The position numbers and the translations under genes were made by a program. Under the pieces are notes generated by a model. That model was given only the letters and a program-made list of their open reading frames with translations, made no database searches and had not been told where the DNA came from. This document shows, piece by piece, positions 22,321-38,118 of a DNA stretch of 64,000 nt. This DNA comes from Candidatus Woesebacteria bacterium. GTDB lineage: Bacteria > Patescibacteriota > Microgenomatia > UBA8517. Location: the NCBI GenBank assembly GCA_013426185.1, contig CP058602.1:628549-692548 (forward strand), written 5' to 3'. The first letter of the stretch is position 1. Every line of letters starts with the position of its first letter.

Positions 22321-24300
22321 TTATTGAATAATATCAGTTTTAATAGATATTTTTGGTTGCTCTTGTTGTGTCTGATTAAGTGCCACGTCACTTTTATTTG
22401 ATAATTCTATTGGGTTACTGGTTATAAGTTGATGTTCCTCAGGTGAAGCAACTACTCTAATAGGAGCATGGTGCGGGCCGGCGAAGAAGATTCCCTCTCC
22501 AACATTGGCTGAAAGCAAGAGCTGCTTTTCTCCTTGTGAGAGATAAAAAACTTCACCCACGCGGTCTATAGCAGTTGGCGATTGTTTTAATAGGACTCTT
22601 AGGGCGCTGTTTGTTACAATGGCTTTACCAATATCTTGAGAAAGGAAATCTTCTACATCTTGAGTAATAGTTGTTAATCCTAGGAAGTATTTTCTTGCTC
22701 TTTTAACAACGCTCCATAAAAACTGGGCTGAATCTTCATATCTCATCATATGCCAGGCTTCGTCAACAATTAGAATTCTTCTTTTGAGGTTTCTTTGTAC
22801 ACGAGTCCAAATAAAATCAAGAATCATAAACATAGCAATAGGGCGAAGAGCCTCTTGCATATCTTTAACTGAAAAAACTGTAAAGGGATTATTGATGTCT
22901 ATATTTGTTTGTTTGTCGAAAATGCCCACAAAACTTCCTTTGACAAATCTTTCTATTCTTGAAGCAAGATCAAGCGCATCTTGAGTTTCCATACCAATTA
23001 ATGTTTTATAAAGATCTTCCATAAGGGGGGGTTCTTTTTTTTGGGTACTAGGATCTTGGGTTATACCCTTTGCGTGGTATGTTGCCACTATGGCGCGGTC
23101 AAGAAGGGCTTCTTTGATAGGGTCAAGCTTCCCCATAATAACTTTAAAGAATGAATGCAGAGTGAGAATTTTTAAGCCTAGTTGATTTTCTCCCTCTGTG
23201 TAAACTTGAGAGAGATCAAAAGGATTAATCTTTGAGGGAGAGTTGAAAGAAAAGGAAATATATTCTCCTCCTACCGCCTCGCAAAGAGGTTTGTATTCTG
23301 CTTCAGGATCAAGAATGATTACTTCGGTTCCAAGCATTAAACTTCTAACAGACTCTAGTTTTACAAAGTATGATTTTCCTGCTCCAGAAGTTGCAAAAAT
23401 TGTCATATTTGAATTTTCAAGAGAAAATCGGTCAAAGATAATAAATGAGCCGTTTTGTGAATTAATGCCATATAAAACACCTTCATCTGATGAAAGTTCA
23501 GCTGATGTTAAAGGAAAGGTAGTAGCAAGAGAGGTTGAATCCATGTTGCGGGTTATTGCTAGTTTGTTAAAGCCGAAGGGAACTGTGGTTAAAAAGCCAT
23601 TTTCCATATCAAGTGTTGCTTTTTTGGCGATAATCATCAACGAGCCAAGGGTTGACTCTACCTGTTTTGTAATATGATCTAATTCTTCTATGGTCGCAGC
23701 TGGTATGGTTATGTAAAATGCAAACTCAAAAAATCTTTCAGCACCTTTTACTAATTGTTCTTGGAGGGTAAGAGCGTCCTCAAGTTTTGCCTGGGTGTTG
23801 GGATCAATTACCTTACCTCTTTCGATATCGGTTGCAATTTCAGCTTCCATTTCAGTAATTTTTCTTCGCAAATCGTCAAGAACACTTTTCCCTTCGATAG
23901 GATAGATATAGAAGGAAATATCAAGAGAATTATTAAAGTTAATTATGGGTTCAAGCCAACCTGGGCTGACAAAGCGTGGATAACCTGAAACAAAGATAGT
24001 TCGAAAATAAGTGTCGTTGATTTTAATATAATCAAAGTCGGTTTCAATAATTTTGGGAGCGATAGCATCAATCAATTCGACCTTTTTGGTAAAAATATCA
24101 ATACTGGGATTACTTATTTCCGGCTTTTCCTCAGTTGATTTTACCGTTGAATCCAAATTTAAATCTTTTACACTATTTTCTTTATTCTCGACTGGTTGAA
24201 GATTGTTTGGTCCATAAGTAGGCTCTGGCGTTTGATAGAGAACTTCTTGATTATCTTTTTTTGTTTCTTCTTTGTTTTTTTTCTTTAAGATGTTAAACAT
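22321..24300 (-). CDS. VirB4/TrbE/CagE-family type IV secretion ATPase (ATPase body)
   Basis: Walker A FATSGAGKSYFVK. Walker B RILIVDEAWHMM. Conserved TQ motif (LTTITQD). Start taken as the internal MFNILKK methionine rather than the 24366 start that overlaps the upstream ORF. Confidence 0.75.
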   Translation of the reverse strand: MFNILKKKNKEETKKDNQEVLYQTPEPTYGPNNLQPVENKENSVKDLNLDSTVKSTEEKPEISNPSIDIFTKKVELIDAIAPKIIETDFDYIKINDTYFRTIFVSGYPRFVSPGWLEPIINFNNSLDISFYIYPIEGKSVLDDLRRKITEMEAEIATDIERGKVIDPNTQAKLEDALTLQEQLVKGAERFFEFAFYITIPAATIEELDHITKQVESTLGSLMIIAKKATLDMENGFLTTVPFGFNKLAITRNMDSTSLATTFPLTSAELSSDEGVLYGINSQNGSFIIFDRFSLENSNMTIFATSGAGKSYFVKLESVRSLMLGTEVIILDPEAEYKPLCEAVGGEYISFSFNSPSKINPFDLSQVYTEGENQLGLKILTLHSFFKVIMGKLDPIKEALLDRAIVATYHAKGITQDPSTQKKEPPLMEDLYKTLIGMETQDALDLASRIERFVKGSFVGIFDKQTNIDINNPFTVFSVKDMQEALRPIAMFMILDFIWTRVQRNLKRRILIVDEAWHMMRYEDSAQFLWSVVKRARKYFLGLTTITQDVEDFLSQDIGKAIVTNSALRVLLKQSPTAIDRVGEVFYLSQGEKQLLLSANVGEGIFFAGPHHAPIRVVASPEEHQLITSNPIELSNKSDVALNQTQQEQPKISIKTDIIQ

Positions 24301-25003
24301 TTTGATTTTCCTCCTCCTTTTTAGGAACCGGCGGCTTTGAATTAAAAATATTATAGTAGAGATCAATTAATTGGGCTGTAGTTAGCTGTCTTAATGTTAT
24401 ACCCAATCTCCTTGCCTGTCTTATTAAATGATCTCTTTTTGGGTAAAGTGAGATTTTGGCTTTTTTTAAAGCGTAAGATTTTGGGAATGGAAGTTTTTGC
24501 CCTCTTTTTATAATTGTCGAGGCCGATTTGGCTATTCCCATTTCAAGTGGGCTAAAAGGAACAACTATGTAAAAGCTTTTCCCCAATACATTTCTTTTTT
24601 TAATAATTTCATTTACAAAGCTTTTGTAACGACTCATTAAAGAAGCAAGTTTTGGATTTTTAATCTTTTGTTCTGCTGACTCAAGATATTCTATGTATTT
24701 TGAAATATCTTTAATTTGCGAGCGAACAATTATCTGAATTGGGAAAGAAAGCGAGTTTAGAAGCGCAGCATAAGCAAAAATGACTGCTTGTTGTTCTTTT
24801 TCTGAAAGCAAAGAAAAATTAAGAGAAGTTGACTCAAGCACTATTGCAGCTCCGCCATCTTTAAAAAGAACAATATTATCGACAATATCGGCAATGGGTA
24901 GAAAATCTTGAGTAGTAGAAATAATAGGAGTATCGGGCATACTAAGGTAGGGTATTTTTAGAGGTATTTTTTTAATTTTGTCTTTCATATTAGTTAATTG
25001 CAT
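24293..25003 (-). CDS. Protein resembling the N-terminal (CagE_TrbE_VirB-type) domain of VirB4; possible split VirB4
   Basis: Segment …FLPIADIVDNIVLFKDGGAAIVLESTSLNFSLLSEKEQQAVIFAYAALLNSL… resembles the VirB4 N-domain pattern. It lies immediately upstream of, and overlaps, the ATPase ORF in a different frame. Confidence 0.4.
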   Translation of the reverse strand: MQLTNMKDKIKKIPLKIPYLSMPDTPIISTTQDFLPIADIVDNIVLFKDGGAAIVLESTSLNFSLLSEKEQQAVIFAYAALLNSLSFPIQIIVRSQIKDISKYIEYLESAEQKIKNPKLASLMSRYKSFVNEIIKKRNVLGKSFYIVVPFSPLEMGIAKSASTIIKRGQKLPFPKSYALKKAKISLYPKRDHLIRQARRLGITLRQLTTAQLIDLYYNIFNSKPPVPKKEEENQNV

Positions 25004-26042
25004 TTGGTGTTGTTTGCGTTGATTTGGCTCTGATTAATATAGGTGGAATGATTTCTCCTTTTGCTTCAAAAGTGGCAGGTTCAAATTCATAACCTTCTTT
25101 CTCAGTAATAATATCGTATTGTCCGTTGGCAAGCGCGGTGACGATCATAAAGTGGCCGAGTTTATTTGACCTTATAGCACGAACAGGTCGGCCGGCAATA
25201 TCTCTTATTTCAAGTATTGCTCCTTCGATAATTTTTCCATTTTGATCTAACACTTGTCCTGTTATCGTGTTCGGAATGGTTGGTGGAAGTGGAGGTGCTG
25301 CTTCGGCTGAAAACTGAACTTGCTGTGATGCTTTTGGTGGCTCTTTTAGTATAGGAGTAACCTGTTGAAGGGATAAGGAAGGCTGTGCGTTTGGTTGTGT
25401 TTCAGCTATTTTTTCTTCGACAACGATTTTGGGTCTGAACGATTTTGGTTGGGTAGTGGGTGCAACTACTGTCTGAGGTCTAACGGGCGCTTGATTAATA
25501 ACTACTGGAGTGGGAGTAGGAGTAGCAACTTGAGCCTGGTTTGCGGATTGACCTTCTTTGATGACCACATTTCCTTGTCTGAAAAGGCTCAATATTCTTG
25601 AGAGAAAATTTTCCTCACCGCTTTCTAATTTATTAAGAGCTCCCTCGTTTTCAGTTGGCACTTTTTTAAGGTATTCTTCAACTTTTTGTTCAGCTTGTGT
25701 TTGTGGAGCTTGAGCTTGAGCCATCTCTTCGTCTTGAAAGAATTTGTAGCCAGCTTGGTTTTTTTGCCAAAGGTAAATGGTAGGGGAATATACAGAGCGA
25801 AAGAAGGCAATTATCCAACGGCTCAACGGCCTTTCTTCAAAAGGTAAAAATGCAAGAGCTGCTCCAAGCGAAACAGAAAACAAAATTAATGGCCATTTGA
25901 TAAAAGGATGAAGGCCAGTTGAATAGATTAAAAGACCCACTAAAGCTCCACCCCCAAGCTGGAAGAATTGTTTTAAAGTCATATCTCCTACCAATCTGAA
26001 CTGGTAGGAACTTATCTGTTGTGGTATCGGATGAGTCTCCAT
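24990..26042 (-). CDS. VirB3/PrgI-like two-TM membrane protein with Pro/Gln/Thr-rich linker and C-terminal beta-sandwich (carboxypeptidase-regulatory-like) domain
   Basis: Two N-terminal hydrophobic helices (GGGALVGLLIYSTGL…, WPLILFSVSLGAALAFL). Position upstream of VirB4. C-terminal GQVLDQNGKIIEGAILEIRD…GHFMIVTALANGQYDIITEKEGY pattern. Confidence 0.4.
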   Translation of the reverse strand: METHPIPQQISSYQFRLVGDMTLKQFFQLGGGALVGLLIYSTGLHPFIKWPLILFSVSLGAALAFLPFEERPLSRWIIAFFRSVYSPTIYLWQKNQAGYKFFQDEEMAQAQAPQTQAEQKVEEYLKKVPTENEGALNKLESGEENFLSRILSLFRQGNVVIKEGQSANQAQVATPTPTPVVINQAPVRPQTVVAPTTQPKSFRPKIVVEEKIAETQPNAQPSLSLQQVTPILKEPPKASQQVQFSAEAAPPLPPTIPNTITGQVLDQNGKIIEGAILEIRDIAGRPVRAIRSNKLGHFMIVTALANGQYDIITEKEGYEFEPATFEAKGEIIPPILIRAKSTQTTPNAIN

Positions 26043-28449: not shown

Positions 28450-28468
28450 CCCATGTTTTTGATAGTAG

Positions 28469-30070
28469 TTATTTTACTTGGCCCATAGCGCGGAGCATGT
28501 CAAAGAATTTTTTACCTCTAGCTGTTCCTTCTGGAATCGCTTTTCCTTGTGGAATAGACTTGTATCTAATTTCGCTTTCTGTGGCTGTATATTGAAGTCC
28601 CATTTTACCAACTCCTACGGCCGGCGCCACAGCCTCGCCGATTGCAGTTCCATAAGCAAATGGCTTGCCTTCTATCATACTCTTTATTATATCAGCTACT
28701 TTGGGAATCATCATATAGATCGCGAAACTTGCAAGCATCCAGAGGAACCTCCCACTGTTTGTGCCCCAAGTTAAAGGCGGGTCCCAGTTTGTAGTTGATT
28801 CTAGAGCCCTGGGTGATATTTGAAAAGGTGCCGCGCGTGCCAGAAAATCACCAACGGTGGAGCCGCCTGTTGCCTGAACAGCAAAAAAGAAGGCGAGAAA
28901 GAACATTACTCCTACGGTTGGATAAACAGCAAGATTGGCAATAAAATTTTTAGCCCACTGCCCAAATCCTCCTCCTATCGGACTAACTATTCCAATCAAG
29001 ATTTGTAAAGGAGCAGCAACAATTGAAAGGATTATTGATACATAGGTTTTTATCATCAGCCACAGAATTTTGAAAGAATTAAAGATAGTTGCTATTAGAA
29101 CTACAAAGAAAAAGAGGATGAGAAGGAAACCGCCAAAGAATCCTGCCGAGAAGATTGTGGCTATAGTGCCAAGCAAAAACATTAACACATAGTGCCAAGA
29201 AAGAACTAAAACATTTCTATCACTTGTTAGATCCTTAAATAGATCTATGGCCGAATAGCCTGAATCTACTAGCCCAGAAGCCTTTATGATTGAAGAGGTT
29301 ATCCCTATGACAACATACATCAAATCTATTAAGAAACCTGCAATTGCGTAGGAAAAGGTTATTAAGACAAGACCGATCACTACTTTAGGAAGAGCTGACT
29401 GAACGGTTATAACGGCTTGGGGAGATATTTTAACCCTGAACATTATCATCAAAGCAAAAGCAATGATAATTATAATCAGAAGGCCGTAAGATATATTTCT
29501 TGTTGCTTGCCACAGCCTTTGTACAGCTGCTCCGCCTGAAGTATAGCCAAAGCCTTGAGCTTTAGCTTCAGGCAAGCTGGTTAGTTTTGAAATTTTTCTT
29601 AAGAGATATCCGGTCCCTGAGAGTTCGTTATTGTAAAGGAAGGAATAGAGAGAAAAGTTGTGGTCCCTTGCTAGTTGGGTTCCTGTTTCGTTATCGGTTA
29701 TTAGCCTTATGGGAAAAGAGAAGAAGTTGTACATTCTTTCTATCACTTCCTTTAGGACTTGGACAGCCCCTGTAATACAACTTCCTAGGTCAGCGGAGAA
29801 GACGCAGATCCAGGGTTCTGGTCGCCCTAAGGTAAGAGCGGTCATCATGTGAGCTGGTATGGAATAAAATATCCAATTGACTTGTGCTGCTGTATATCTT
29901 TCTCCGAAAATCTCGGTTGGGTTTGAGACATCAAACGTTTTTACGTACCATTCGGGGTAGTCTTGGTGAAACCATAAATTATCAGCAGCGAAAGCTTGAG
30001 AGGATGAAGCGGGAAGAATGAAAATGGCAATTAAAATCGAGATGATTATTTTTTTAATAGTTTTTTTCAT
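28469..30070 (-). CDS. Signal-peptide-bearing polytopic membrane protein, VirB6/TrbL-like by architecture
   Basis: Signal sequence IIISILIAIFILPASSSQAFA, then an ~170-aa N-terminal domain, then at least 6 TM helices. Architecture and T4SS context only. Confidence 0.4.
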   Translation of the reverse strand: MKKTIKKIIISILIAIFILPASSSQAFAADNLWFHQDYPEWYVKTFDVSNPTEIFGERYTAAQVNWIFYSIPAHMMTALTLGRPEPWICVFSADLGSCITGAVQVLKEVIERMYNFFSFPIRLITDNETGTQLARDHNFSLYSFLYNNELSGTGYLLRKISKLTSLPEAKAQGFGYTSGGAAVQRLWQATRNISYGLLIIIIIAFALMIMFRVKISPQAVITVQSALPKVVIGLVLITFSYAIAGFLIDLMYVVIGITSSIIKASGLVDSGYSAIDLFKDLTSDRNVLVLSWHYVLMFLLGTIATIFSAGFFGGFLLILFFFVVLIATIFNSFKILWLMIKTYVSIILSIVAAPLQILIGIVSPIGGGFGQWAKNFIANLAVYPTVGVMFFLAFFFAVQATGGSTVGDFLARAAPFQISPRALESTTNWDPPLTWGTNSGRFLWMLASFAIYMMIPKVADIIKSMIEGKPFAYGTAIGEAVAPAVGVGKMGLQYTATESEIRYKSIPQGKAIPEGTARGKKFFDMLRAMGQVK

Positions 30071-30136
30071 TTTTTAAAAAGTGTCCTACCTTTTATTTTA
30101 GAGCGATTTTGGTCTTAAAGGCAATAGGCAGTTGGT

Positions 30137-30652
30137 TCAGGGATTTTTATTTTCGCAAAAACTTAGACCATAATTTTTTCCTGCATATTCTGGATTAGCA
30201 TAACTTGGTGTTGTGATATTTACTTTAAGGTAGCAAGCTTCTTGTTGACTAATTTTCAATTTATCAAGCAATGCTTTTTCGGCTTCAGTTCTAATTTCAT
30301 CAAACGGAGAACTGAGTATAGATATAAGAAATGAATTATCAACAGGAATATACATTATTTGGTAATCCTTTTTATCGATAAATTTAGCAAAACCATCCTT
30401 TTTAATTTCAGTTGCTTCTCTATAAAAATTGTTGACCTCTATCCCTGAAATTTTTATTTTTGGCGACTCTTGATCAATTTTTGTTTCCAAATCTTTTGGC
30501 AAAAAGGGGGAAGTTGTGGGTTGTATGGTTTTTTGGGGCTCGGTAATTTCGCTTTTGGGATAGGGAATAAAAATTCCTATTAAAGCAAAAACAGCTACAG
30601 CGAGAAAAGAAAAGATCAGAATTTTGTTTTTGTCAATTTTTTTTATGGGCAT
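30137..30652 (-). CDS. Small bitopic membrane protein (N-terminal TM anchor plus ~140-aa external domain), candidate VirB8-like component
   Basis: Anchor ILIFSFLAVAVFALIGIFIPY. Size and topology fit VirB8-type proteins. No sequence motif confirmed. Confidence 0.35.
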   Translation of the reverse strand: MPIKKIDKNKILIFSFLAVAVFALIGIFIPYPKSEITEPQKTIQPTTSPFLPKDLETKIDQESPKIKISGIEVNNFYREATEIKKDGFAKFIDKKDYQIMYIPVDNSFLISILSSPFDEIRTEAEKALLDKLKISQQEACYLKVNITTPSYANPEYAGKNYGLSFCENKNP

Positions 30653-32985
30653 TTTGATATATCAAGGCCACAAGCTTTAGCTGCGTTTATCCATGGGCAC
30701 CAAGGGCTGTATCCTCTACTTTTCAAGTCTTTTGTCAAAGCAACAGCCTTTTGTATATTATTGGTAGGATCAAAAAACATATTAGCGCATTCAATTACTC
30801 TGTCCTTGTCCTTAATTGTACACATTGGTCGATTTTTATCAAAGGGTGTTCCACCGTCACAGTGTGCCAAAAGGTTTATTTGAAAAAGTCCGATACTGTA
30901 GTCAAAACTACTACCGCTTAAACATCCACAATTGATGGCGTCTGGGTTGCCACCACTTTCAGTGTTGCAAATACAAGACGCGGCTGCAGCATCACCTGGG
31001 TCAAAAAACTGGCTAAGATATGATTGACTACAGTATCCTCCTCCAGGAACAGCCCCACTTGGAGAGCCGCTGTTTCCTGCAGGTGAAGAAGTACAAAGAC
31101 CGGTTGGGTCTGTTCCGCCACCACTTTGTAATTCTTGCCCGACAGAGGCAATGGATTTTTCGCTACAGGCTGATGGTATCCCTCCTATTTCAATACCTCC
31201 TATGAAAGGAATCCAGCCTGGGAGTCTTATTCCTTTTGTGCAAGCGACAATTTGGTCGTGACGATCTTGTCTTGCTCTTGGCGTTACTTCATTGGCTCTG
31301 CCTGTTAGCTGAGTTGCTGGCCTTTGCGAGTTAAGAGTGTTGATTTTGATTTTGTTTTTCCACTGAATTTCTTGAGGCAAGAGCTTGTTTAGTGGACCTG
31401 AAAACGTTGTTATTCTTTTTAGATCTGCTTCCTCTTTGTGGCTTAAAGGGTCGTCTTCGGCTCTATAGAGCGTGCCGTTTAAGTACCAGCTTAGGTATTC
31501 ATTTGCGCGGTCGGCTTCGGGAATCTTCTGGCCTGTGGTTAGACCAGCTGGTGCTCCCCCAAACTCTTTAGGCCTTAGAGCAGTCTGGATGCCCAGTAGG
31601 AAATAGTCATATATGCCTCCGAGGTGGGGAAAATAAAGCTGGGGGTTTTGGGTAGAAAGGTTGGCTCCGTCGCCATTAATATTATATTCTACATTTGAGG
31701 ACGCGGGGATGTCTTTTATTTTTTCATAAGGAGAGTTGGGGCTTGTTTTTGGCATTATTCTCCTGAAAATGGACGAGTTGCCAGCAGTTGTTTTGCTCCA
31801 AATTTCATCTACAAGAGGGGTGAAAGTTTCAACCTGAGCTGATAGTTCTGCTGTATTTGTGCATTCTCCTCTGAGGGAACAAAAACCGGAAGAGCAGTCC
31901 CATACTGCTGGACAATCAAAAGAAGCTGTATATGTTATTTTGGCAGCAGGTGCGCCTGTTGACTTTTGAGCTCTTTTGTCTATTTGTTCCCCAAACAATT
32001 GATCTCCGGGGTTATAGCGCGATTCTAGAATAGTGCACCCTGATTGCTGCCTTACAGCATTAATATCGCCAGCTTTGATGCTTTGAGCTTGTCTGTTGTC
32101 TAGATTTTCTTTTGGGGCGAATGTGGATTGTAACAGTGTTGTTAGTTCTACCCCTTCCTCAAGGTGGGGAAAATAAAGGACGCCCTCTCTTGTGGTAGTG
32201 TTTTTGGTCCTCGGGTCGTCTGATTTTTGTTTCCATTCTGTTCTTAAGTTTTTTATCTCAAAATTGGTTGAGGGCATGGAGCTAAAGTCAGACAATCTTA
32301 TTTTGCCGATTCTATCTTCGGTGGAGGAATAGGGTATGTATGGAAAAAGCGCGGCCCAGAAATCTGGCTGGAGGGGGTTGTTAAAGCAGAACAGAATCTT
32401 GAAACCAATTATTGGTATAGTTACCTCTGCGCAGGTTTTACCTCTCCATTCCTGGTATGCTGCATAATAGTCTTTCAGATTTGAATATCGAGAGGGGTCT
32501 GGTGGCAAACGGTCTTTCCATTCTGCTAGTCTTTTCTCGTTTTCTCCAAGAGACGATGTTTTTCCCCGAGGAACAAGTTCCGTGTTGCCTGCTATTGGCA
32601 GTTCGGAATTAAAAGCATTGACCGAAATCTCGACCTCCTTTGGAACGTTGCAATGGCAGGTAGTGTTTGAATTCCCTGAAGCGGCTTGAGGGGGGTCGCA
32701 TCGGCAATGGGAACTGTTAACATTGGTTGTAAAGGTTTGCCTTATGACGAAATCTTTTCCACAAAGCAGAGATTGCTCTTCATCCTTGATGGGTACTTGG
32801 CAGGGGCTTGCTTGATAAGGCCTTAAAGAGTGCCACTCTGGTTTTTTGGTTTGATCGCAGGGAACGTAGGGTTCGGGAATTGGGGCAGGGTTGGTAGCGT
32901 AGACTTTTTGGGTAGAAGATAGAAAAGCTAATAGGAAAAAGAGAGAAAAAACAAAACTAAGTCTTTTTTTGAATAAACCTGGCAT
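30643..32985 (-). CDS. Secreted cysteine-rich 780-aa protein with C-terminal GH23/SLT-type lytic transglycosylase domain (VirB1-like function)
   Basis: Signal peptide LSFVFSLFFLLAFLSSTQKVYA. Many Cys. C-terminal CICNTESGGNPDAIN…SIGLFQIN matches the SLT catalytic ES…GLMQI signature. Confidence 0.6.
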   Translation of the reverse strand: MPGLFKKRLSFVFSLFFLLAFLSSTQKVYATNPAPIPEPYVPCDQTKKPEWHSLRPYQASPCQVPIKDEEQSLLCGKDFVIRQTFTTNVNSSHCRCDPPQAASGNSNTTCHCNVPKEVEISVNAFNSELPIAGNTELVPRGKTSSLGENEKRLAEWKDRLPPDPSRYSNLKDYYAAYQEWRGKTCAEVTIPIIGFKILFCFNNPLQPDFWAALFPYIPYSSTEDRIGKIRLSDFSSMPSTNFEIKNLRTEWKQKSDDPRTKNTTTREGVLYFPHLEEGVELTTLLQSTFAPKENLDNRQAQSIKAGDINAVRQQSGCTILESRYNPGDQLFGEQIDKRAQKSTGAPAAKITYTASFDCPAVWDCSSGFCSLRGECTNTAELSAQVETFTPLVDEIWSKTTAGNSSIFRRIMPKTSPNSPYEKIKDIPASSNVEYNINGDGANLSTQNPQLYFPHLGGIYDYFLLGIQTALRPKEFGGAPAGLTTGQKIPEADRANEYLSWYLNGTLYRAEDDPLSHKEEADLKRITTFSGPLNKLLPQEIQWKNKIKINTLNSQRPATQLTGRANEVTPRARQDRHDQIVACTKGIRLPGWIPFIGGIEIGGIPSACSEKSIASVGQELQSGGGTDPTGLCTSSPAGNSGSPSGAVPGGGYCSQSYLSQFFDPGDAAAASCICNTESGGNPDAINCGCLSGSSFDYSIGLFQINLLAHCDGGTPFDKNRPMCTIKDKDRVIECANMFFDPTNNIQKAVALTKDLKSRGYSPWCPWINAAKACGLDISKCP

Positions 32986-33027
32986 TTGTTATGATTTTAA
33001 AGCTAAAACGTGAGGAAGTAAAGCTTG

Positions 33028-33330
33028 TTATTCCTGATAGATGATTTTGAATTGGGTAACGTCTACTCCTGTGAATTGATAAATTAACTTAAGTATTAAA
33101 AAAGACATTGCAAGAAGTACGATGCCAAAGATGGCGTAAGTTATGGTTTTTTTTGCTGCTTCTGCTTGCTGAGGGTTGCCTCCTGCAGTTATATAGTTAA
33201 ATCCGCCAACAATAAGCATTATAAAGAGGACTATTCCTGCAAATTCAAGCGCTACTTTTACTATGTTTCCAAAATAAGTTTCAATGTCTGATAGCTTTGC
33301 TGGTGGTTCTGCTGTTGTTGTTGATTCCAT
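33028..33330 (-). CDS. Pilin-like small membrane protein, paralogue 1 of 8 (VirB2/TrbC-like two-helix architecture)
   Basis: Shared motif ITAGGNPQQAEAAKKTITYAIFGIVLL between two hydrophobic helices. Confidence 0.55.
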   Translation of the reverse strand: MESTTTAEPPAKLSDIETYFGNIVKVALEFAGIVLFIMLIVGGFNYITAGGNPQQAEAAKKTITYAIFGIVLLAMSFLILKLIYQFTGVDVTQFKIIYQE

Positions 33331-33377
33331 CAGAGACGATTATAGCAAAAGCAGTAAAAAAAAAGAAGCTTGAGACT

Positions 33378-33773
33378 TTATTGATTAACAGTAGGAATCT
33401 GAAGGTTAAAAATGTTAACACCAAAGAAGGTTCCAATTAAGCCAGCTATTGCCCAAGCGGCAAAGACAATAACCAAGCCAACCAAGGCAGCAGTAATTTG
33501 AGCTCTAGCTTGTTCTGTTTGACCTTTATCGCCACCCGAGATAATCCAACGTATTCCGCCGATTACCAAAATAAAGAAGAAAACAATTGCTGCAATAACC
33601 AAAGCCAGTTTTAGAAGACCCGCAATAATACCTCCTATGGTTAGGTTAGCGACAGTTCCAGCTAACTGGTCGTTTGTTGGTTTTAAGTTTATTGTATTTC
33701 CTTGAGCCAAGACTTCTAGAGCTAAGCTTTTCATATTTCCCATATTATCTAATTTTTGTATTGTTTTTGTCAA
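33378..33773 (-). CDS. Pilin-like small membrane protein, paralogue 2
   Basis: Motif IISGGDKGQTEQARAQITAALVGLVIV. Two hydrophobic helices. Confidence 0.55.
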   Translation of the reverse strand: MTKTIQKLDNMGNMKSLALEVLAQGNTINLKPTNDQLAGTVANLTIGGIIAGLLKLALVIAAIVFFFILVIGGIRWIISGGDKGQTEQARAQITAALVGLVIVFAAWAIAGLIGTFFGVNIFNLQIPTVNQ

Positions 33774-33775
33774 GA

Positions 33776-34146
33776 GGGGAATTGGTCGAAGCTAATCGGA
33801 AGACTGTATTTAGTATTTTGTATTATGTATTATGGGAAATCCAAGTAGTAAGTAGAACGTAGTAAGTAGAAAGCAAAATTAATAAATAGTTAAAAGTTCA
33901 AAGTGCAAAATTCAAAGTTGGAATTTATTTGTTTGGAATTTGTAATTTGGAATTTGCCTGCCCTGAACCGAATTTATTCTGGTTCAGGGTTTAGAATTTA
34001 GATATTAGAATTTAGGATTTGGACCTTGTAATTTGGAGCTTGGAATTTGTTTGTAATTTGTATATTGGAATTTGTGATTTAATTCTATAATCTATAATCC
34101 AAAATCTATAATCTAATCATCAAGTTTTGATTTTGAGTTAATCCGT
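33776..34146. repeat. Dispersed AT-rich repeat family, copy R2 (inverted copy of R1; same orientation as R3)
   Basis: Matches the reverse complement of 6640..6900 over ~280 bp. Contains the perfect 9-bp-stem hairpin ccctgaacc(n13)ggttcaggg at 33962..33990. Confidence 0.7.
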
Positions 34147-34148
34147 CT

Positions 34149-34472
34149 CTATTCAAGAAAATTTATCCTTAATTCTAGAAGTTTAATTCCAAAGAAGTTC
34201 TCAAGTATATAAATTATAGCGAAAAGAGAAAGAAGAATGACTAGTCCAATGACAGCGTTGGTTATTTTGCTTTTTGCTGATTCGATGGCTGCTTTATCTC
34301 CTCCTGAAATAATCCATTGAATAGCGCCCACAATAATTATGGCTACGAAGATAATGGCGCCAACAATAAAACTTAGACTGATTAAATTTGGCAAGAGCTT
34401 GTTAAAAAACTCAGTTCCTGAAAGGTTTCTGACACCTTCTCCTAGAGCTGGATTTTTAATACCTTGGTCCAT
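34149..34472 (-). CDS. Pilin-like small membrane protein, paralogue 3
   Basis: Motif IISGGDKAAIESAKSKITNAVIGLVIL. Confidence 0.55.
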   Translation of the reverse strand: MDQGIKNPALGEGVRNLSGTEFFNKLLPNLISLSFIVGAIIFVAIIIVGAIQWIISGGDKAAIESAKSKITNAVIGLVILLSLFAIIYILENFFGIKLLELRINFLE

Positions 34473-34475
34473 AAG

Positions 34476-34856
34476 TTATTTCCAAATGTTTTCAACAAAC
34501 TGAGCTGGATTGAGAATTAGGCTAATACCCAAGATTTTTCCCACCAGTTCGATCAGAAAGATGGAAGCGACAACAACGACAAGACCTATAAGAGCGTTAA
34601 ATATTCTTTTTCTGGCTGATTCAAGAGCTCCTTTGTCTCCACCTGATGAGATCATTGCAATTGCACCTGAAACGAAAACAAAAATAAACCAGAGCCCAGC
34701 GACAATAGTTAAAACACCTATAACTCCTGAAATGAAGGAGTTAAAAATGGTTGGGGCAGTTTCAGGGTTGCTTTGTTCAAGACCCAGCCTGCCAAAGCCC
34801 TTAAAGCCCTCATTTGGCGAAAGCGGTATGTCTGCAGCAATTAGTTTTGAGATCAT
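34476..34856 (-). CDS. Pilin-like small membrane protein, paralogue 4
   Basis: Motif ISSGGDKGALESARKRIFNALIGLVVV. Confidence 0.55.
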   Translation of the reverse strand: MISKLIAADIPLSPNEGFKGFGRLGLEQSNPETAPTIFNSFISGVIGVLTIVAGLWFIFVFVSGAIAMISSGGDKGALESARKRIFNALIGLVVVVASIFLIELVGKILGISLILNPAQFVENIWK

Positions 34857-35188
34857 AGGCTTGGAATTTTAGGTCTAAGCAAGAAAAAGTAATCGTTGAA
34901 AACCAATTTTCCAAAAATAGCTGCCAAAACAAAAGAGCCAGCTGCAACAGCAAGGCCTAAAAGTGTTTGCCAAATTTTTGCCCAAGCACTTGCTACTTTT
35001 TTAGGATCATCGCTTGCTGAAATGAAAGCATAACCGGCTAGAATTAAATTAATCAAAGCATAAATGCCGGCAATGATTATTAAAGTTCTGAGAATTAAGT
35101 CCAAAAGCTTGCCTATAGCTCCACTTTCAACCGAGCCAAACTTGCTGATTGCTTCAGGTGAATTTATTGGTCCAAAGACTTGTAACAT
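34853..35188 (-). CDS. Pilin-like small membrane protein, paralogue 5
   Basis: Motif ISASDDPKKVASAWAKIWQTLLGLAVA. Confidence 0.5.
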   Translation of the reverse strand: MLQVFGPINSPEAISKFGSVESGAIGKLLDLILRTLIIIAGIYALINLILAGYAFISASDDPKKVASAWAKIWQTLLGLAVAAGSFVLAAIFGKLVFNDYFFLLRPKIPSL

Positions 35189-35192
35189 AAGA

Positions 35193-35513
35193 CTAAATTG
35201 TCGGCTGGGTAATAAAATTGTTACCAGTTATTATTTCAATAATTCTTATTACCCAGTACGCTCCAAATATTATTATAAACCCTATTATAGCAGTTGTGAC
35301 AGCTTTTTTCCCTTTTTCAATTTTTTGAGGATCGGAGGAGCCCGCGCCTGAAATTAGAGAGATTCCGGCGAAGATAAAAAGAAACAAGATTATTATGCCA
35401 CTAACAGCAAAAGATGCGTTTAAGATTAGTGTTATGAGGTCTCCTATTCCTTTGGTGTTGCCAAAAGGAGAACCAAAAGTACTTCCTATGTCAATTGCTA
35501 AGCTTTTCATCAT
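35193..35513 (-). CDS. Pilin-like small membrane protein, paralogue 6
   Basis: Motif ISGAGSSDPQKIEKGKKAVTTAIIGFIII. Confidence 0.5.
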   Translation of the reverse strand: MMKSLAIDIGSTFGSPFGNTKGIGDLITLILNASFAVSGIIILFLFIFAGISLISGAGSSDPQKIEKGKKAVTTAIIGFIIIFGAYWVIRIIEIITGNNFITQPTI

Positions 35514-35830
35514 TATTGGAACGTTTGTCTTATTTTATCAAGTCCTAAAACAGCAGCTACTATCTGCACAATCCAGTAGGATGCAAAAATTATAACAAAA
35601 CCAATTAGAGCTTGGGTAATTTTGCTTTGTGCTTCCTGCGCTTTTTTAGGATCGCCTGCTGAAGTTAAATACTGAAACCCGCCAAGAATCAGGTAGATGA
35701 GAAGAAGAATTCCGGCGACAGCAAAAATGTATTTTAAAGATTCACCAACTATTGTACCCACATTTCCACCCGCAAACTTGAGTCCGATACTGCCTTCTAA
35801 TTGTTGATAATTAACTTGAGCTAGGTTCAT
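35513..35830 (-). CDS. Pilin-like small membrane protein, paralogue 7
   Basis: Motif LTSAGDPKKAQEAQSKITQALIGFVIIF. Confidence 0.55.
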   Translation of the reverse strand: MNLAQVNYQQLEGSIGLKFAGGNVGTIVGESLKYIFAVAGILLLIYLILGGFQYLTSAGDPKKAQEAQSKITQALIGFVIIFASYWIVQIVAAVLGLDKIRQTFQ

Positions 35831-35835
35831 AGTTT

Positions 35836-36375
35836 TTACGATAAACCTGGAATCTTAAGTATACTAACTCCAATTACTCTTAAAATAAAAACAGAAAAAA
35901 TCAAAAGGATTAATCCCATTATAGCCGAACTTAGAAGTTCTTTTCCTGCCTGAAGCCTTTTAGGGTCTCCTTGCGATGTCATAATTTGAAATGAGGCGAT
36001 AATAATTAAGATAAAAGCTATTCCTCCTGCAATACCAATCGCCCATTTAAGTATAAATTCTATCATTCCCTGCTGCTCAATTGGGATACAACCAATGGCG
36101 GTATCAATACAGTCGCCTTTTAGGGCAGAGATACCAGCAGCAGGATTGGCAACCCCTCTTGGTAGGGGTACTATGGTCGAATTGGGGTCGTCTTGACAAT
36201 AGCCATTTACACAGATCAAGCCAGTTTGACAGGAGTCGGGCGGGCCTCCAGCTAAGTTGCAGCATCTCTCCCCAATTAGACCGCATTGAATTGGAGATTG
36301 TGCTGAAACTTTTCCTTGCGCCAGGGACAACAAAAGAAATAAGCTGGCAAGGAAGGTAATTATATTTTTTCTCAT
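35836..36375 (-). CDS. Pilin-like protein, paralogue 8, with added N-terminal signal peptide and 8-Cys-rich ectodomain (candidate minor or tip pilin)
   Basis: Signal peptide, then CGLIGERCCNLAGGPPDSCQTGLICVNGYCQ, then the family motif MTSQGDPKRLQAGKELLSSAIMGLILLIF. Confidence 0.55.
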   Translation of the reverse strand: MRKNIITFLASLFLLLSLAQGKVSAQSPIQCGLIGERCCNLAGGPPDSCQTGLICVNGYCQDDPNSTIVPLPRGVANPAAGISALKGDCIDTAIGCIPIEQQGMIEFILKWAIGIAGGIAFILIIIASFQIMTSQGDPKRLQAGKELLSSAIMGLILLIFSVFILRVIGVSILKIPGLS

Positions 36376-36438: not shown

Positions 36439-38118
36439 ATGACGATGTCAAAAGCCCGCTTGTTGATTTTGCTAAGAAAAGTCTTTTTTCTTTTGTTTTT
36501 GGTCTCATTTTTTTATCTTTTTAAAAATGTTGTTTTTGCTCAAACCTGTCCCACTACTGATTATGATTGCCAGATAAGAGAAATTCAAAAAGAAATTGAT
36601 CTTTTAAAACCCGCTCATGAGAAAAATAAAGCTGAGCTTGATGGTCTTAAAAAGCAACTTGCCAATCTTGATAAAAGAATTAAAAATCTTTCTTTGAAAT
36701 TGAAGGAAAATGAAGCTGAGATAGAAAAAAGGGAAGAGGATTTAGCTTATGCCAAAGAAATTTTCAATCAGAAAGCAAACAGCCATTATCGCTTTTTAAG
36801 GCTTTATGATCCGATTATTCCCTTTCTTTCAGCCCCTTTAGCCTCAGAGGCTTTTAAGGAAATTAATTTCAGGCAGAGAGCGATTGATGATGACAGGCGG
36901 ACGATGGAAAAATATGCTCAAGATCTTTTGGAACTTAAAAGTGATAGAGAAACTTTGGAGAAGAATAAGACTAGCCTTGCTTCTTTGAAAAAACAGGTTG
37001 ATGAAAGAGCTACTTTTTTGGCAGGTGAGGTTGAAAAAACAGAAAAATATTTGGCTTCTTTGTCGGCAAAACAGGAGGCAATACTTGCAGCAAAAAGCGG
37101 CAGTTTTATTGCCAGTGTTGGAGATAGTGAACTTGCGGATGATTATTATGCTTCAATCAAAGGTTTTCGTGAAGCGGCACCTCCTGGTTCCTATGCTGTT
37201 TTTGCTTTTGGCGCTTATACCCATCGCAAAGGCATGAGCCAATATGGAGCAAGAGGAAGGGCTAATTCAGGGGCAAACTACAAAGATATTCTAAGGGCTT
37301 ATTATGGCAAGGAACCGGTTAAAAAAGATACCGGTGGAACGATTAATGTTTCAGGAGTGGGAACGGTTGATTTTGAAGGATATTATCTTTTGGGAATTGC
37401 TGAAATGCCATCTACCTGGCATCCCGAAGCCTTGAAAGCTCAGGCGGTAGCAGCAAGAACTTATGCCTATCGTTATAAAGTTGAGGGAAGATCTATTTGT
37501 ACAACTGAATCTTGTCAGGTTTTTAGGAAGTCAAAAGCTGATAATTCTCCTGAGGCTTGGAGAAAAGCGGTTGAAGAAACAAGAGGGGAGGTTTTGGAAG
37601 ATGTAATTACTTTTTATTCCTCAACTGCAGGTGGGTATTTGACGACAATGGGTTGGGATACAACAGATGGCTCGGGTGGCGGAAATTTTCTTGATAAATC
37701 CTATGAGAAAATTGGTGGCTCGCCTTGGGTTTATAAGGCATGGTACACCAAAGACTATAGCCCCCAAAGTGATAAGTGTGGAAGAAGTAATCCTTGGTTA
37801 ACAAGCGAGGAATTAGCAGACATTATCAATGCCGCGCGTTATCGTGATGAAAGAGTTACCCCTGTTACAACCGCTTGTTGGGGTGGCAATCCTTATTCTT
37901 ATGAAGAATTAAGGCGAAAAGCCAATGGTCCATCAAGGGTAAATTCGGTTAGTGTAATTCAAGGTAATGGTTCAACCAGTAAGGTAATTTTTCAGACAGA
38001 TATTGGCCAAATTGAATTGTCAGCTGATGAATTCAAAACCGCCTTTAATCTTCGCGCTCCCGGTTATCTTAAAATTCCCCAGAAAGGGTACACCTTCTTT
38101 AACATTGAAAAGAAGTAG
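36439..38118 (+). CDS. SpoIID/LytB-domain protein with N-terminal signal anchor and coiled-coil region
   Basis: SpoIID signatures YTHRKGMSQYGARGRANSGANYKDILRAYYG and ALKAQAVAARTYAY. N-terminal heptad-rich region. Confidence 0.75.
   Translation: MTMSKARLLILLRKVFFLLFLVSFFYLFKNVVFAQTCPTTDYDCQIREIQKEIDLLKPAHEKNKAELDGLKKQLANLDKRIKNLSLKLKENEAEIEKREEDLAYAKEIFNQKANSHYRFLRLYDPIIPFLSAPLASEAFKEINFRQRAIDDDRRTMEKYAQDLLELKSDRETLEKNKTSLASLKKQVDERATFLAGEVEKTEKYLASLSAKQEAILAAKSGSFIASVGDSELADDYYASIKGFREAAPPGSYAVFAFGAYTHRKGMSQYGARGRANSGANYKDILRAYYGKEPVKKDTGGTINVSGVGTVDFEGYYLLGIAEMPSTWHPEALKAQAVAARTYAYRYKVEGRSICTTESCQVFRKSKADNSPEAWRKAVEETRGEVLEDVITFYSSTAGGYLTTMGWDTTDGSGGGNFLDKSYEKIGGSPWVYKAWYTKDYSPQSDKCGRSNPWLTSEELADIINAARYRDERVTPVTTACWGGNPYSYEELRRKANGPSRVNSVSVIQGNGSTSKVIFQTDIGQIELSADEFKTAFNLRAPGYLKIPQKGYTFFNIEKK

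What the first reader, a model, noticed from the sequence alone, without database searches (positions are those of the whole stretch)
33028..36375. Eight tandem paralogous two-helix pilin-like genes sharing a [ST][AG]G[GD][DP]-x6-A[KR]-xxI-xxA[LI][IV]G[LF][VI] core
Each ORF is 100-180 aa. Each has an N-terminal hydrophobic helix, a short loop carrying the conserved GGD/AGD…AK motif, and a second helix (…A.IGLVI…). The 5'-most gene, 35836..36375, additionally carries a cleavable signal peptide and an 8-cysteine knottin-like ectodomain, as expected for a tip or adhesin variant. The array is interrupted between paralogues 2 and 3 by repeat copy R2. Such a deep tandem family suggests antigenic or functional diversification of a filament subunit.
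Basis: seen in the sequence. Interest (0 to 1): 0.75.

Follow-up and report, generated by a model that had tools for sequence, protein, structure and literature searches.

The report
Eight-gene T4SS pilin cassette, Woesebacteria
The eight small tandem genes are the VirB2-like pilin set (Pfam T4SS_pilin) of the chromosomal type IV secretion system of an ultrasmall Candidatus Woesebacteria bacterium. This kind of array has already been described for Patescibacteria; the new point here is that its eight members are kept in the same order across many species.

Summary
Eight minus-strand ORFs (100-179 aa) at 33028-36375 are true paralogues. All eight hit Pfam PF18895 T4SS_pilin, six above the curated cut-off. 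Each is a two-helix hairpin with a short, net-positive loop. They lie in a Patescibacteria T4SS locus (VirB4, PrgI/VirB3, SLT_3, M23, SpoIID) next to dnaA/dnaN in Ca. Woesebacteria Ch104c.

Arrays of 2-11 such pilins in Patescibacteria are published (PMC12102498), so this is a new member of a known kind.

What this analysis adds:
- The paralogues share no recombination tracts.
- The eight genes are 1:1 orthologous and collinear in about 20 other species, so the duplications are old and the copies probably non-redundant. This argues against a paralogue-shuffling antigenic-variation cassette.
- The first gene has a conserved pilin core, but its signal-peptide-led, Cys-rich ectodomain varies greatly (115-631 aa, 2-36 Cys). 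That fits an adhesin or tip subunit.
- Between strains, variation falls in the N- and C-terminal tails. pil3, pil5 and pil7 also carry divergent alleles in an otherwise near-identical background.
- The family includes single polypeptides with many pilin units.

The most likely function is a heteromeric pilus-like conduit. This is inferred, not shown.

The parts
35836..36375 (-). pil1: Sec signal peptide, 6-Cys ectodomain, C89-C96 hairpin and pilin hairpin core (179 aa). First gene of the array.
   Evidence: PF18895 30.5 bits. AF2: helix 2-18, small beta domain 30-62, hairpin 89-98, helices 102-133 and 138-167. Orthologue alignment shows a conserved IDTAIGCIP core and a variable N-terminal part.
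35513..35830 (-). pil2: pilin (105 aa)
35193..35513 (-). pil3: pilin (106 aa). Its start overlaps the pil2 stop by 1 nt.
   Evidence: PF18895 35.1 bits. Divergent alleles between strains, dS 0.28-0.43.
34853..35188 (-). pil4: pilin (111 aa). Most conserved orthogroup but weakest Pfam match.
   Evidence: PF18895 17.4 bits, CagC E=0.008. 82-86% identical in L007/L008 and 61% in L009. The 4-nt overlap with pil5 is conserved.
34476..34856 (-). pil5: pilin (126 aa)
   Evidence: PF18895 26.1 bits against a cut-off of 26.6. Paralogy to pil7 and pil6, E about 1e-15.
34149..34472 (-). pil6: pilin (107 aa)
   Evidence: PF18895 30.4 bits.
33786..34134 (.). Dispersed intergenic repeat inserted between pil6 and pil7. 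Lineage-specific.
   Evidence: Copies at 6506-7005 and 52137-52640. Absent from the 21-52 nt pil6|pil7 spacer in L007-L009. Other assemblies' contigs break here.
33378..33734 (-). pil7: pilin. Probable ATG start at 33734 (118 aa); the mechanical ORF runs to the TTG at 33773.
   Evidence: PF18895 38.9 bits. The TTG is the -35 hexamer of a TTGACA-18-GATAAT match at 33773..33744. The N-terminus MKSLA is shared with pil3, a 14-nt identical word.
33028..33330 (-). pil8: pilin (100 aa), last of the array
   Evidence: PF18895 43.1 bits.
30643..32985 (-). Secreted 780-aa protein with a C-terminal lysozyme-like SLT_3 domain (VirB1-like role)
   Evidence: PF18896 26.4 bits against a cut-off of 27. Signal-peptide-like N-terminus. 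Syntenic in L001 and L007-L009.
30137..30652 (-). 171-aa bitopic membrane protein. Conserved neighbour, function unassigned.
   Evidence: One TM segment at 11-29 and no Pfam hit. Present in L001 and L007.
28469..30070 (-). 533-aa polytopic membrane protein. Candidate VirB6/PrgH-like platform (inferred).
   Evidence: Signal peptide plus about 6 hydrophobic segments between residues 193 and 398. No Pfam hit even at E<=10. Syntenic in L001 and L007-L009.
24990..26042 (-). PrgI (VirB3-like) protein with a CarboxypepD_reg domain
   Evidence: PF12666 27.3 bits against a cut-off of 27.
22321..24366 (-). VirB4-type T4SS ATPase
   Evidence: P-loop_TraG 6e-32, CagE_TrbE_VirB 3.8e-5.
19337..22318 (-). 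993-aa membrane protein with a C-terminal M23 peptidase domain
   Evidence: PF01551 6e-18. Two TM segments.
36439..38118 (+). SpoIID-domain protein, divergently transcribed. Conserved neighbour of the array.
   Evidence: PF08486 1.6e-19. Adjacent to pil1 in L001-L009.

Best explanation
The eight ORFs are the VirB2-like pilin cassette (Pfam T4SS_pilin family) of the chromosomal, origin-proximal type IV secretion system of a Candidatus Woesebacteria (Microgenomatia, Patescibacteria) bacterium. That system is related to the conjugation machinery of monoderm bacteria.

What is shown:
- Each protein is a helical hairpin: a variable hydrophilic N-terminal tail, helix 1, a tight net-positive S-G-G-D-P/K turn, helix 2 with an A-x-x-G motif, and a variable C-terminal tail.
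- The eight are ancient paralogues.
- Each is kept as a separate orthogroup, in the same gene order, across the lineage.
- Each is under purifying selection.

What is inferred:
- The hairpins sit in the cytoplasmic membrane with both termini outside and the loop inside. pil1's Sec signal and disulfide-rich ectodomain require this topology.
- The VirB4 ATPase extracts them on a VirB6-like platform. The 533-aa polytopic protein downstream is the candidate platform.
- They assemble into one pilus-like tube. The loops line its lumen and the variable tails cover its surface.
- The eight members play non-redundant roles, like a major pilin plus minor, adaptor and tip subunits.
- pil1, a conserved core carrying a hypervariable Cys-rich ectodomain, is the host-binding or tip subunit.
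- By analogy with Southlakia, the structure connects this epibiont to its host cell for uptake or delivery of molecules rather than for conjugation. No coupling protein or relaxase is found nearby.
For: Identity:
- PF18895 hits all eight, six above the cut-off.
- All eight show sub-threshold similarity to the Mycoplasma ICE pilin-like family NF045849, E 1.5e-9 to 8e-3.
- NCBI names the orthologues 'pilin'.
- VirB4, PrgI/VirB3, SLT_3 and M23 genes lie in the same minus-strand run downstream of the array (between them a 634-aa ORF lies on + at 26545-28449), with SpoIID divergent upstream.
- dnaA and dnaN are next to the locus, as reported for the T4SS of Microgenomatia (PMC12102498).

Structure and topology:
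- Two hydrophobic helices and a net-positive loop in all eight; N-tails are neutral or acidic.
- AF2 gives hairpins.

Non-redundancy:
- Against L007, L008 and L009 the positional orthologue is 41-88% identical, compared with 19-51% (mostly 25-45%) off-diagonal.
- Of 25 species representatives, 16 show an unambiguous pil1 to pil8 order. Four more have eight collinear genes with position 6 ambiguous between pil6 and pil7. One has nine. Four are truncated but collinear.
- omega is 0.04-0.5.
- No exact DNA word longer than 14 nt is shared between paralogues.
- In Southlakia the series of T4SS pilins is essential (PMC10633639).

Surface exposure of the tails:
- Strain and species substitutions cluster in the N- and C-terminal tails, while helix 1, loop and helix 2 are nearly invariant.

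pil1 as adhesin:
- Orthologues range from 115 to 631 aa with 2-36 Cys, sometimes in 2-3 copies, on a core 45-79% identical.

Co-assembly:
- Single ORFs with 2-13 or more pilin units exist. Two were verified as uninterrupted ORFs, L036:950-4393 and L037. This only works if both termini lie on the same side of the membrane.

Analogy:
- PrgF_B2 of pCF10 is a two-helix protein with a DDPR loop that lines a modelled pilus lumen. It is essential for conjugation (bioRxiv 10.64898/2025.12.18.695078).
Against: - No filament has been seen for any Patescibacteria T4SS. Assembly, stoichiometry and the role of each paralogue are all inferred.
- There is no significant sequence link to solved pilins, to PF04956 TrbC/VirB2 (best E 0.052) or to PrgF (hhalign probability 1.8%).
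- Seven of the eight lack the cleavable leader typical of VirB2/TraA propilins.
- The VirB6 assignment for the 533-aa protein rests on topology and position only.
- Conserved order and orthology would also fit eight alternative homopolymers that are each kept for a different purpose.
- The strain-level allelic mosaics could be partly assembly chimeras.
Confidence: 0.65

Rival explanations
1. Alternative pili for antigenic or host-range variation. Each paralogue would form its own homopolymeric filament, and cells would switch between them or express a mixture to evade phage or host defences or to match different host strains. This is what PMC12102498 proposes, by analogy with the VirB2 paralogues of Bartonella and Anaplasma.
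For: - The paralogues are very divergent, 21-39% identity.
- Variation concentrates in the predicted surface tails.
- pil3, pil5 and pil7 have divergent alleles (79-90% nt identity, dS 0.28-0.74) in contigs that are otherwise about 100% identical.
- A promoter-like site lies before pil7.
- The literature makes this suggestion.
Against: - There are no recombination tracts or shared cassette borders between paralogues.
- All eight are full-length genes, tightly packed and partly overlapping, as in an operon.
- Orthology is strictly positional and the octet is retained across about 20 species under purifying selection. This is not expected for redundant, interchangeable variants.
- Natural fusions of several units in one chain argue for co-assembly.
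- The pilin series is essential in Southlakia.
Confidence: 0.2
2. Membrane-resident T4SS components rather than an extruded filament. The hairpins would stay in the cytoplasmic membrane as a hetero-oligomeric ring, channel lining or stalk around the VirB6/VirB3/VirB4 complex. No extracellular pilus would form.
For: - No pilus has been observed.
- Seven of the eight lack a cleavable leader.
- Multi-unit polypeptides with up to 13 or more hairpins would be polytopic membrane proteins and are hard to picture being extracted into a helical filament.
- The fold match to pilins is not discriminating.
Against: - The family similarity is to pilin families (PF18895, TrbC, CagC, NF045849), not to channel subunits.
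- The variable exposed tails and a hypervariable disulfide-rich ectodomain on pil1 point to a surface that meets the outside world.
- The locus holds three cell-wall hydrolase genes (SLT_3, M23, SpoIID). That fits a structure crossing the wall.
- PrgF_B2 labelling data support extrusion in a related monoderm system.
Confidence: 0.13
3. Unrelated small membrane proteins, such as holins or generic two-TM proteins, whose similarity is only compositional.
For: A single weak hit of pil2 to Phage_holin_3_6 (E=0.13), plus scattered weak hits to other TM families.
Against: - PF18895 hits reach E 4e-11.
- Pairwise E-values reach 7e-21.
- The profile finds 27,272 representative clusters at E<=1e-10.
- The genes are embedded in a T4SS locus, and neither the Pfam scans of the larger window ORFs nor the flanks of the related loci gave a phage hit; several ORFs have no Pfam match and no PHROGs scan was run.
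Confidence: 0.01

Closest known systems
VirB2-like pilin arrays of Patescibacteria T4SS (Quinonero-Coronel et al. 2025, PMC12102498; six-pilin essential array of Ca. Southlakia epibionticum, Wang et al. 2023, PMC10633639)
   Same: - Same Pfam family (PF18895).
- Same genomic setting: a chromosomal VirB4/PrgI locus near dnaA, with no relaxase or T4CP found in the window.
- Same phenomenon: 2-11 tandem, highly divergent pilin genes, reported as especially frequent in Microgenomatia.
- The within-array identity of 21-39% matches their reported mean of 25%.
   Different: This particular eight-gene array is not singled out in those papers. They interpret arrays as variable and possibly antigenic. 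Here the eight positions are 1:1 orthologous and collinear across about 20 Woesebacteria-type species. The first member carries a hypervariable Cys-rich ectodomain.
PrgF_B2 of Enterococcus plasmid pCF10 (VirB2-like pilin of Gram-positive T4SS; bioRxiv 10.64898/2025.12.18.695078)
   Same: - Two-helix membrane hairpin with a short charged loop. PrgF has S-N-D-D-P-R; here it is S-G-G-D-P-K.
- Monoderm MPF_FATA-type machinery with PrgI, VirB4 and a cell-wall hydrolase.
- Predicted to polymerise on a VirB6-like pentamer.
   Different: - No significant sequence relationship: hhalign E 0.028 and probability 1.8%, and PrgF does not hit PF18895.
- PrgF is a single-copy 75-aa protein without tails.
- It is used for conjugation with a relaxase and a coupling protein.
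Conjugative pilins VirB2/TraA/TrwL of diderm T4SS (PF04956) and archaeal conjugation pilins (PDB 8dfu, 8dft)
   Same: - The loop is expected to line the lumen, with the termini on the surface.
- Weak TrbC and CagC profile hits.
   Different: - Below the Pfam threshold for PF04956.
- No long cleaved leader in seven of the eight, and no evidence of cyclisation.
- Eight different subunits instead of one major pilin plus a VirB5 tip protein.
- Monoderm envelope without VirB7/9/10.
Major/minor pilin sets of type IV pili and type II secretion (for example PilA with FimU-PilVWX, or GspG with GspHIJK). A functional analogy only.
   Same: Several divergent paralogous subunits are encoded together and kept as separate orthogroups, with specialised priming, tip and adhesin members.
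   Different: An unrelated protein family and assembly machine. Those systems use class III signal peptides, the PilD peptidase and a PilB ATPase.
Mbov_0395 family pilin-like conjugal transfer protein of Mycoplasma ICEs (NCBIfam NF045849)
   Same: All eight proteins align over nearly the whole 80-residue model, E 1.5e-9 to 8e-3. It is another monoderm (MPF_FATA) system.
   Different: All scores (15.9-37.4 bits) fall below the curated cut-off of 40. That family is a single-copy ICE gene used for conjugation.

Membership tests
Pfam PF18895 T4SS_pilin | Profile score at or above the gathering threshold (26.6 bits) | tested here: met
   Six of eight pass: 43.1, 39.0, 38.9, 35.1, 30.5 and 30.4 bits. 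pil5 scores 26.1 and pil4 17.4. Both join the family through paralogy (BLASTP E down to 2.5e-15 for pil5 against pil7 and 3e-12 for pil2 against pil4) and through positional orthology.
Pfam PF18895 T4SS_pilin | Two membrane helices joined by a short charged loop | tested here: met
   Hydropathy and loop charge. AF2 helices 24-55/61-94 in pil2 and 102-133/138-167 in pil1.
Pfam PF18895 T4SS_pilin | Encoded with T4SS core genes (VirB4, VirB3/PrgI) | tested here: met
   VirB4 at 22321-24366 and PrgI at 24990-26042, both on the minus strand downstream of the array, in a run broken only by a 634-aa ORF on + at 26545-28449.
VirB2/TrbC pilins sensu stricto (PF04956) | Profile score at or above the gathering threshold (27.9 bits) | tested here: not met
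   Best scores are 14.2 bits (E 0.052, pil2) and 12.9 bits (pil3).
VirB2/TrbC pilins sensu stricto (PF04956) | Propilin with a long N-terminal leader cleaved by signal peptidase | tested here: not met
   Only pil1 has an N-terminal hydrophobic signal segment. The other seven start with 22-43 aa hydrophilic tails. Cleavage itself cannot be tested here.
VirB2/TrbC pilins sensu stricto (PF04956) | Fold matches solved conjugative pilins specifically | tested here: inconclusive
   [not shown]
VirB2/TrbC pilins sensu stricto (PF04956) | Polymerises, with phospholipid, into an extracellular pilus | not testable with these tools
   Needs microscopy and biochemistry. Single-chain structure prediction only was available.
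PrgF_B2-type Gram-positive VirB2-like pilins | Detectable sequence or profile homology to PrgF of pCF10 | tested here: not met
   hhalign of A4 against PrgF: E 0.028, probability 1.8%, although the D-P loop aligns in register. PrgF has no PF18895 hit.
NCBIfam NF045849 Mbov_0395 pilin-like conjugal transfer protein | Score at or above the curated cut-off (40 bits) | tested here: not met
   Scores are 15.9-37.4 bits, all below the cut-off. All eight still hit with E 1.5e-9 to 8e-3 over nearly the full model.
Antigenic-variation pilin cassettes (gene conversion between paralogous or silent copies) | Shared conserved tracts or recent exchange between copies; partial or silent copies | tested here: not met
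   The longest exact DNA word shared between any two paralogues is 14 nt. All copies are full-length with start codons. Orthology across species is 1:1 by position.
Holins | Holin family profile match and phage-lysis gene context | tested here: not met
   Only one hit, pil2 to Phage_holin_3_6 at E 0.13. The flanking genes with a Pfam match are T4SS or housekeeping genes; several neighbours (171, 236, 343, 533, 634 aa) have no match.

The most novel reading that the evidence does not exclude
The eight pilins are obligate, non-interchangeable subunits of one heteromeric T4SS filament or conduit with a defined assembly order. A hypervariable disulfide-rich pil1 would form the host-recognition tip. 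The multi-unit 'polypilin' polypeptides found elsewhere in the family would be covalent versions of the same hetero-assembly. That would make it the first T4SS pilus built from many distinct VirB2-like subunits. It would also explain why pilin arrays are essential and conserved in epibiotic Patescibacteria.
Probability: 0.3. Interest if true: 0.6.

Novelty: new member of a known kind. Interest (0 to 1): 0.33.

Why it matters
Patescibacteria depend on host bacteria. In the one tractable species, the T4SS and its pilin series are essential, yet nobody knows what the structure looks like or what it moves.

If the array is a fixed, collinear set of eight orthogroups rather than a pool of variable copies, the question changes from 'antigenic variation' to 'heteromeric machine'. 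A hypervariable ectodomain on the first member also marks pil1 as the likely host-specificity determinant. Both ideas can be tested directly by cryo-ET, proteomics and multimer modelling.

The identification itself is ordinary. The family is in Pfam and such arrays are published.

Tried and rejected
- **Recombination between paralogues.** I searched for long shared DNA words. The maximum is 14 nt, so this is rejected.
- **Profile search of PDB sequences with a 32-sequence pilin alignment.** Only designed helical proteins with GDP-type loops and a viral glycoprotein TM segment came up. No pilin was found.
- **Foldseek of the pil1 model against the PDB.** Nothing at E<=1e-3. Knottin and Aeropyrum-pilin hits appear only at E 0.7-1.5.
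- **Direct homology to PrgF_B2 of pCF10.** Not significant.
- **Pfam at E<=10 for the 533-, 171-, 236-, 343- and 634-aa neighbours, to find VirB6, VirB8 or T4CP.** Nothing usable.
- **VirD4 and relaxase.** No such hit among the roughly 50 larger ORFs I scanned with Pfam, which is not every ORF of the 64-kb window.
It matches none of the eight.
- **Assigning units of multi-unit proteins to the window's orthogroups, to test whether fusion order follows array order.** Assignments were mostly ambiguous because those proteins come from distant lineages.
- **Holin or generic-TM reading.** Rejected.

Full report
**1. The observation**

I number them in transcription order:

| Name | Coordinates | Length | Notes |
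|---|---|---|---|
| pil1 | 36375..35836 | 179 aa | |
| pil2 | 35830..35513 | 105 aa | |
| pil3 | 35513..35193 | 106 aa | |
| pil4 | 35188..34853 | 111 aa | |
| pil5 | 34856..34476 | 126 aa | overlaps pil4 by 4 nt |
| pil6 | 34472..34149 | 107 aa | followed by a 375-nt gap |
| pil7 | 33773..33378 | 131 aa (TTG) | probably 118 aa from the ATG at 33734 |
| pil8 | 33330..33028 | 100 aa | |

The eight are homologous, not just similar in composition.
- BLASTP all-against-all gives 21-39% identity, with E-values down to 7e-21 in a tiny database.
- All eight hit Pfam PF18895 'T4SS_pilin'. Six are above the 26.6-bit gathering score; pil5 scores 26.1 and pil4 17.4.
- Each has two strong hydrophobic segments.
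- The loop between them is net positive: K+R 2-4 against D+E 1-2. The N-terminal tails are neutral or acidic.

- Used literally, it matches none of the eight.
- Its first five positions match only pil2.
- The only invariant column is the Gly of an A-x-x-G in helix 2.

pil1 has a signal-peptide-like N-terminus and eight Cys.

The gap between pil6 and pil7 holds a roughly 350-nt dispersed repeat. It recurs at 6506-7005 (about 90% identical, inverted) and at 52137-52640.

A TTGACA-18-GATAAT match lies at 33773..33744, so the 'TTG start' of pil7 is more likely a -35 box. The real start is probably the ATG at 33734. Its first 14 nt (MKSLA) are identical to the start of pil3.

**2. Context and source**

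Downstream on the same strand lie the following genes:
- a secreted 780-aa protein with a lysozyme-like SLT_3 domain;
- a 171-aa bitopic protein;
- a 533-aa protein with a signal peptide and about six TM segments;
- a PrgI (VirB3-like) protein;
- a VirB4 ATPase (P-loop_TraG 6e-32);
- a 993-aa M23 peptidase.

Upstream, divergently transcribed, is a SpoIID-domain protein.

dnaA (15608-17002), dnaN and yidC sit immediately beyond the locus, and the cumulative GC skew has its minimum there. No VirD4-type coupling protein or relaxase turned up among the roughly 50 larger ORFs scanned with Pfam, which is not every ORF in the 64-kb window.

pil2 is 100% identical to CH104c_0693 of a Candidatus Woesebacteria MAG on an 819-kb contig. 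The closest complete genome found is Ca. Woesebacteria Ch104a, CP055308.1.

**3. What is already known**

- Quinonero-Coronel et al. 2025 (PMC12102498) searched 3,035 Patescibacteria genomes with PF18895 and PF04956. They report 441 VirB2 arrays of 2-11 pilin genes in 383 assemblies. [quoted passage not shown] The authors suggest antigenic variation or adaptation to different host strains. They also report the T4SS near dnaA.
- Wang et al. [quoted passage not shown] They also found no relaxase or coupling protein.
- A 2025 review calls this a cluster of six structurally conserved, sequence-divergent VirB2-like pilins (PMC12857230).
- A 2025 preprint shows that Gram-positive T4SSs also have a VirB2-like pilin, PrgF_B2. 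Its charged loop (D37, D38, R40) lines a modelled pilus lumen.

So the family, the array phenomenon and the general interpretation are all in the literature.

**4. What the analysis here adds**

(a) There is no exchange between paralogues. The longest exact DNA word shared by any two copies is 14 nt.

(b) The octet is ancient and collinear.
- In L007, L008 (CP055308.1) and L009 there are eight pilin genes of matching sizes in the same place.
- The positional orthologue is 41-88% identical, against 19-51% (mostly 25-45%) for any other pair.
- I scanned one genome per GTDB species with a pil4 alignment and found 25 loci.
- After classifying their ORFs with an HMM and BLASTP: 16 have an unambiguous pil1 to pil8 order. 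Four more have eight collinear genes with position 6 scoring about equally to pil6 and pil7. One has nine, with pil1 duplicated. Four are truncated contigs whose genes are still collinear.
- Unrelated genes are sometimes inserted without loss of any pilin. Examples are UppS-like, 23S-rRNA-IVP and membrane proteins.
- The repeat insertion in this window is specific to its own lineage. The pil6|pil7 spacer is only 21-52 nt in L007-L009.
- pil4, the weakest Pfam match, is the most conserved orthogroup.

(c) pil1 is a conserved core with a hypervariable head.
- Its C-terminal 95 residues are 45-79% identical across the lineage. These cover C-x6-C, IDTAIGCIP, helix 1, SQGDPKRLQAGKELL and helix 2.
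- The N-terminal part ranges from almost nothing to more than 500 residues, with 2-36 Cys and different Cys patterns. It is sometimes present in two or three copies.
- The AF2 model (pLDDT 75) shows a signal helix, a small beta domain at 30-62, a hairpin at 89-98 and the two long helices.
- Foldseek hits to spider knottins are weak: E 0.7-1.8.

(d) Variation sits on the predicted outside of the filament. Between strains and species, substitutions cluster in the N- and C-terminal tails. Helix 1, the loop and helix 2 are nearly invariant.

(e) There are strain-level allelic mosaics.
- Contigs from other samples that carry an identical pil1 are 99-100% identical to the window over most of the shared flanks, apart from short dips at 28.0-28.5 kb and 36.75-37 kb and a variable region right of about 41 kb.
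- They drop to 79-90% nt identity in pil3, pil5 and pil7. In one contig the drop spans pil3 to pil6.
- There dS is 0.28-0.74 and omega 0.05-0.3.
- This looks like imported or long-maintained alleles under purifying selection. Assembly chimerism between co-existing strains cannot be excluded. pil1 identity was the selection criterion for these contigs, so it carries no information.

(f) Family size and polypilins.
- A profile of pil2 orthologues plus the paralogues finds 93,307 representative clusters at E<=1e-3 and 27,272 at E<=1e-10, among 1.84 billion.
- 139 of the 150 best are single polypeptides with 2-13 or more pilin units. The ranking favours multi-unit proteins.
- I verified one 1,147-aa, 11-unit protein as an uninterrupted ORF (L036:950-4393). 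I also verified a pil1-core-plus-two-units ORF in L037.
- Concatenation is only topologically possible if both termini of each hairpin lie on the same side of the membrane. It also implies that unlike units work side by side.

**5. Comparison with known pilins**

- Sequence links to classical VirB2 families are sub-threshold: TrbC E 0.052, CagC E 0.008.
- All eight show consistent sub-threshold similarity to the Mycoplasma ICE pilin-like family NF045849, E 1.5e-9 to 8e-3. That is another monoderm system, which fits the reported MPF_FATA ancestry of the Patescibacteria VirB4.
- A profile search of PDB sequences finds no pilin.
- PrgF of pCF10, fetched as L035:19545-19772, aligns with its DDP loop in register but without significance.

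**6. Mechanism**

Shown:
- family membership;
- the hairpin architecture;
- the T4SS context;
- ancient, collinear and selectively maintained paralogy;
- a variable exterior and a conserved core;
- a hypervariable pil1 ectodomain.

Inferred:
- The topology is N-out, loop-in, C-out. pil1's signal peptide and disulfide domain require it, and the loop charge is consistent with it.
- VirB4 extracts the pilins on a VirB6-like platform, for which the 533-aa protein is the candidate.
- They assemble into one pilus-like tube whose lumen is lined by the S-G-G-D-P/K...A-K/R loop.
- The eight subunits have non-redundant roles, with pil1 as the host-binding or tip subunit.
- The structure serves the epibiotic lifestyle rather than conjugation.

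Rivals:
- Alternative homopolymeric pili for variation, confidence about 0.2.
- Membrane-resident components that are never extruded, about 0.13.
- Unrelated TM proteins or holins, about 0.01.

**7. Verdict**

Both the family and the array phenomenon are published, so this is a new member of a known kind.

The modest added value is threefold. There is evidence for a fixed octet of orthogroups with a hypervariable first member. There is no sign of shuffling between paralogues. And multi-unit polypilins exist in the family.

Noticed in passing
L036:950-4393 (ENA ERZ24794666 NODE_123331); L037:2-940 (GCA_016187065.1 JACPKJ010000037.1); proteins P0174-P0323: The T4SS_pilin family contains many single polypeptides made of 2-13 or more concatenated pilin hairpin units. 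One is a verified uninterrupted 1,147-aa ORF with 11 units. 139 of the 150 best profile hits are multi-unit, although the ranking is biased towards them.
   Followed up: partly
window 33786-34134, 6506-7005 (inverted), 52137-52640: A dispersed intergenic repeat of about 350-500 nt, built of 7-nt microrepeats (AAATTCC/AAATTAC, CTTTTAA, CTACTTA, GATGTCC) around a hairpin with a 9-bp stem (CCCTGAACC...GGTTCAGGG). Contigs from other assemblies end inside it. It is absent from the same spacer in related species. No Rfam family matches it.
   Followed up: partly
window 33500-35500 compared with L001, L002, L005, L006: In contigs otherwise about 100% identical to the window, pil3, pil5 and pil7 fall to 79-90% nt identity (dS 0.28-0.74, omega 0.05-0.3). 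In L006 the drop spans pil3-pil6. This is either a real inter-strain recombination mosaic or an assembly chimera.
   Followed up: partly
window 13966-18299 and 18296-36375: yidC, dnaA and dnaN and the cumulative GC-skew minimum lie directly next to the T4SS locus. Almost all ORFs of the locus (the 634-aa ORF at 26545-28449 is on +) are on the minus strand, so they would be head-on to replication if oriC is at dnaA.
   Followed up: no
window 45197-50334: A Tsp45I-type restriction enzyme, an N4/N6 methyltransferase, an OLD-family AAA_15/TOPRIM nuclease and a large serine recombinase lie next to a cluster of Ser/Arg tRNA genes. Related contigs differ to the right of about 41-42 kb, so this looks like a strain-variable defence island.
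   Followed up: no
window 26085-26459; L019:8182-8559; L030:8363-8719: A '23S rRNA intervening sequence protein' (four-helix bundle, bAvd-like) gene sits inside the T4SS locus. Homologues also occur in insertions that split the pilin array in other species, there together with a UppS-like gene.
   Followed up: no
L002:12722-14555: In one metagenome contig the array continues after pil6 and part of the repeat into a 477-aa membrane protein and a Gly-rich 143-aa protein, instead of pil7, pil8 and SLT_3. This may be a rearrangement or a misassembly at the repeat.
   Followed up: no
window 28469-30070: A 533-aa protein with a signal peptide, a roughly 170-aa extracytoplasmic domain and about six TM segments. 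It has no Pfam hit even at E<=10 but is syntenic in all related loci. It is a candidate for the divergent VirB6/PrgH that the literature reports as 'scarce' in Microgenomatia.
   Followed up: partly
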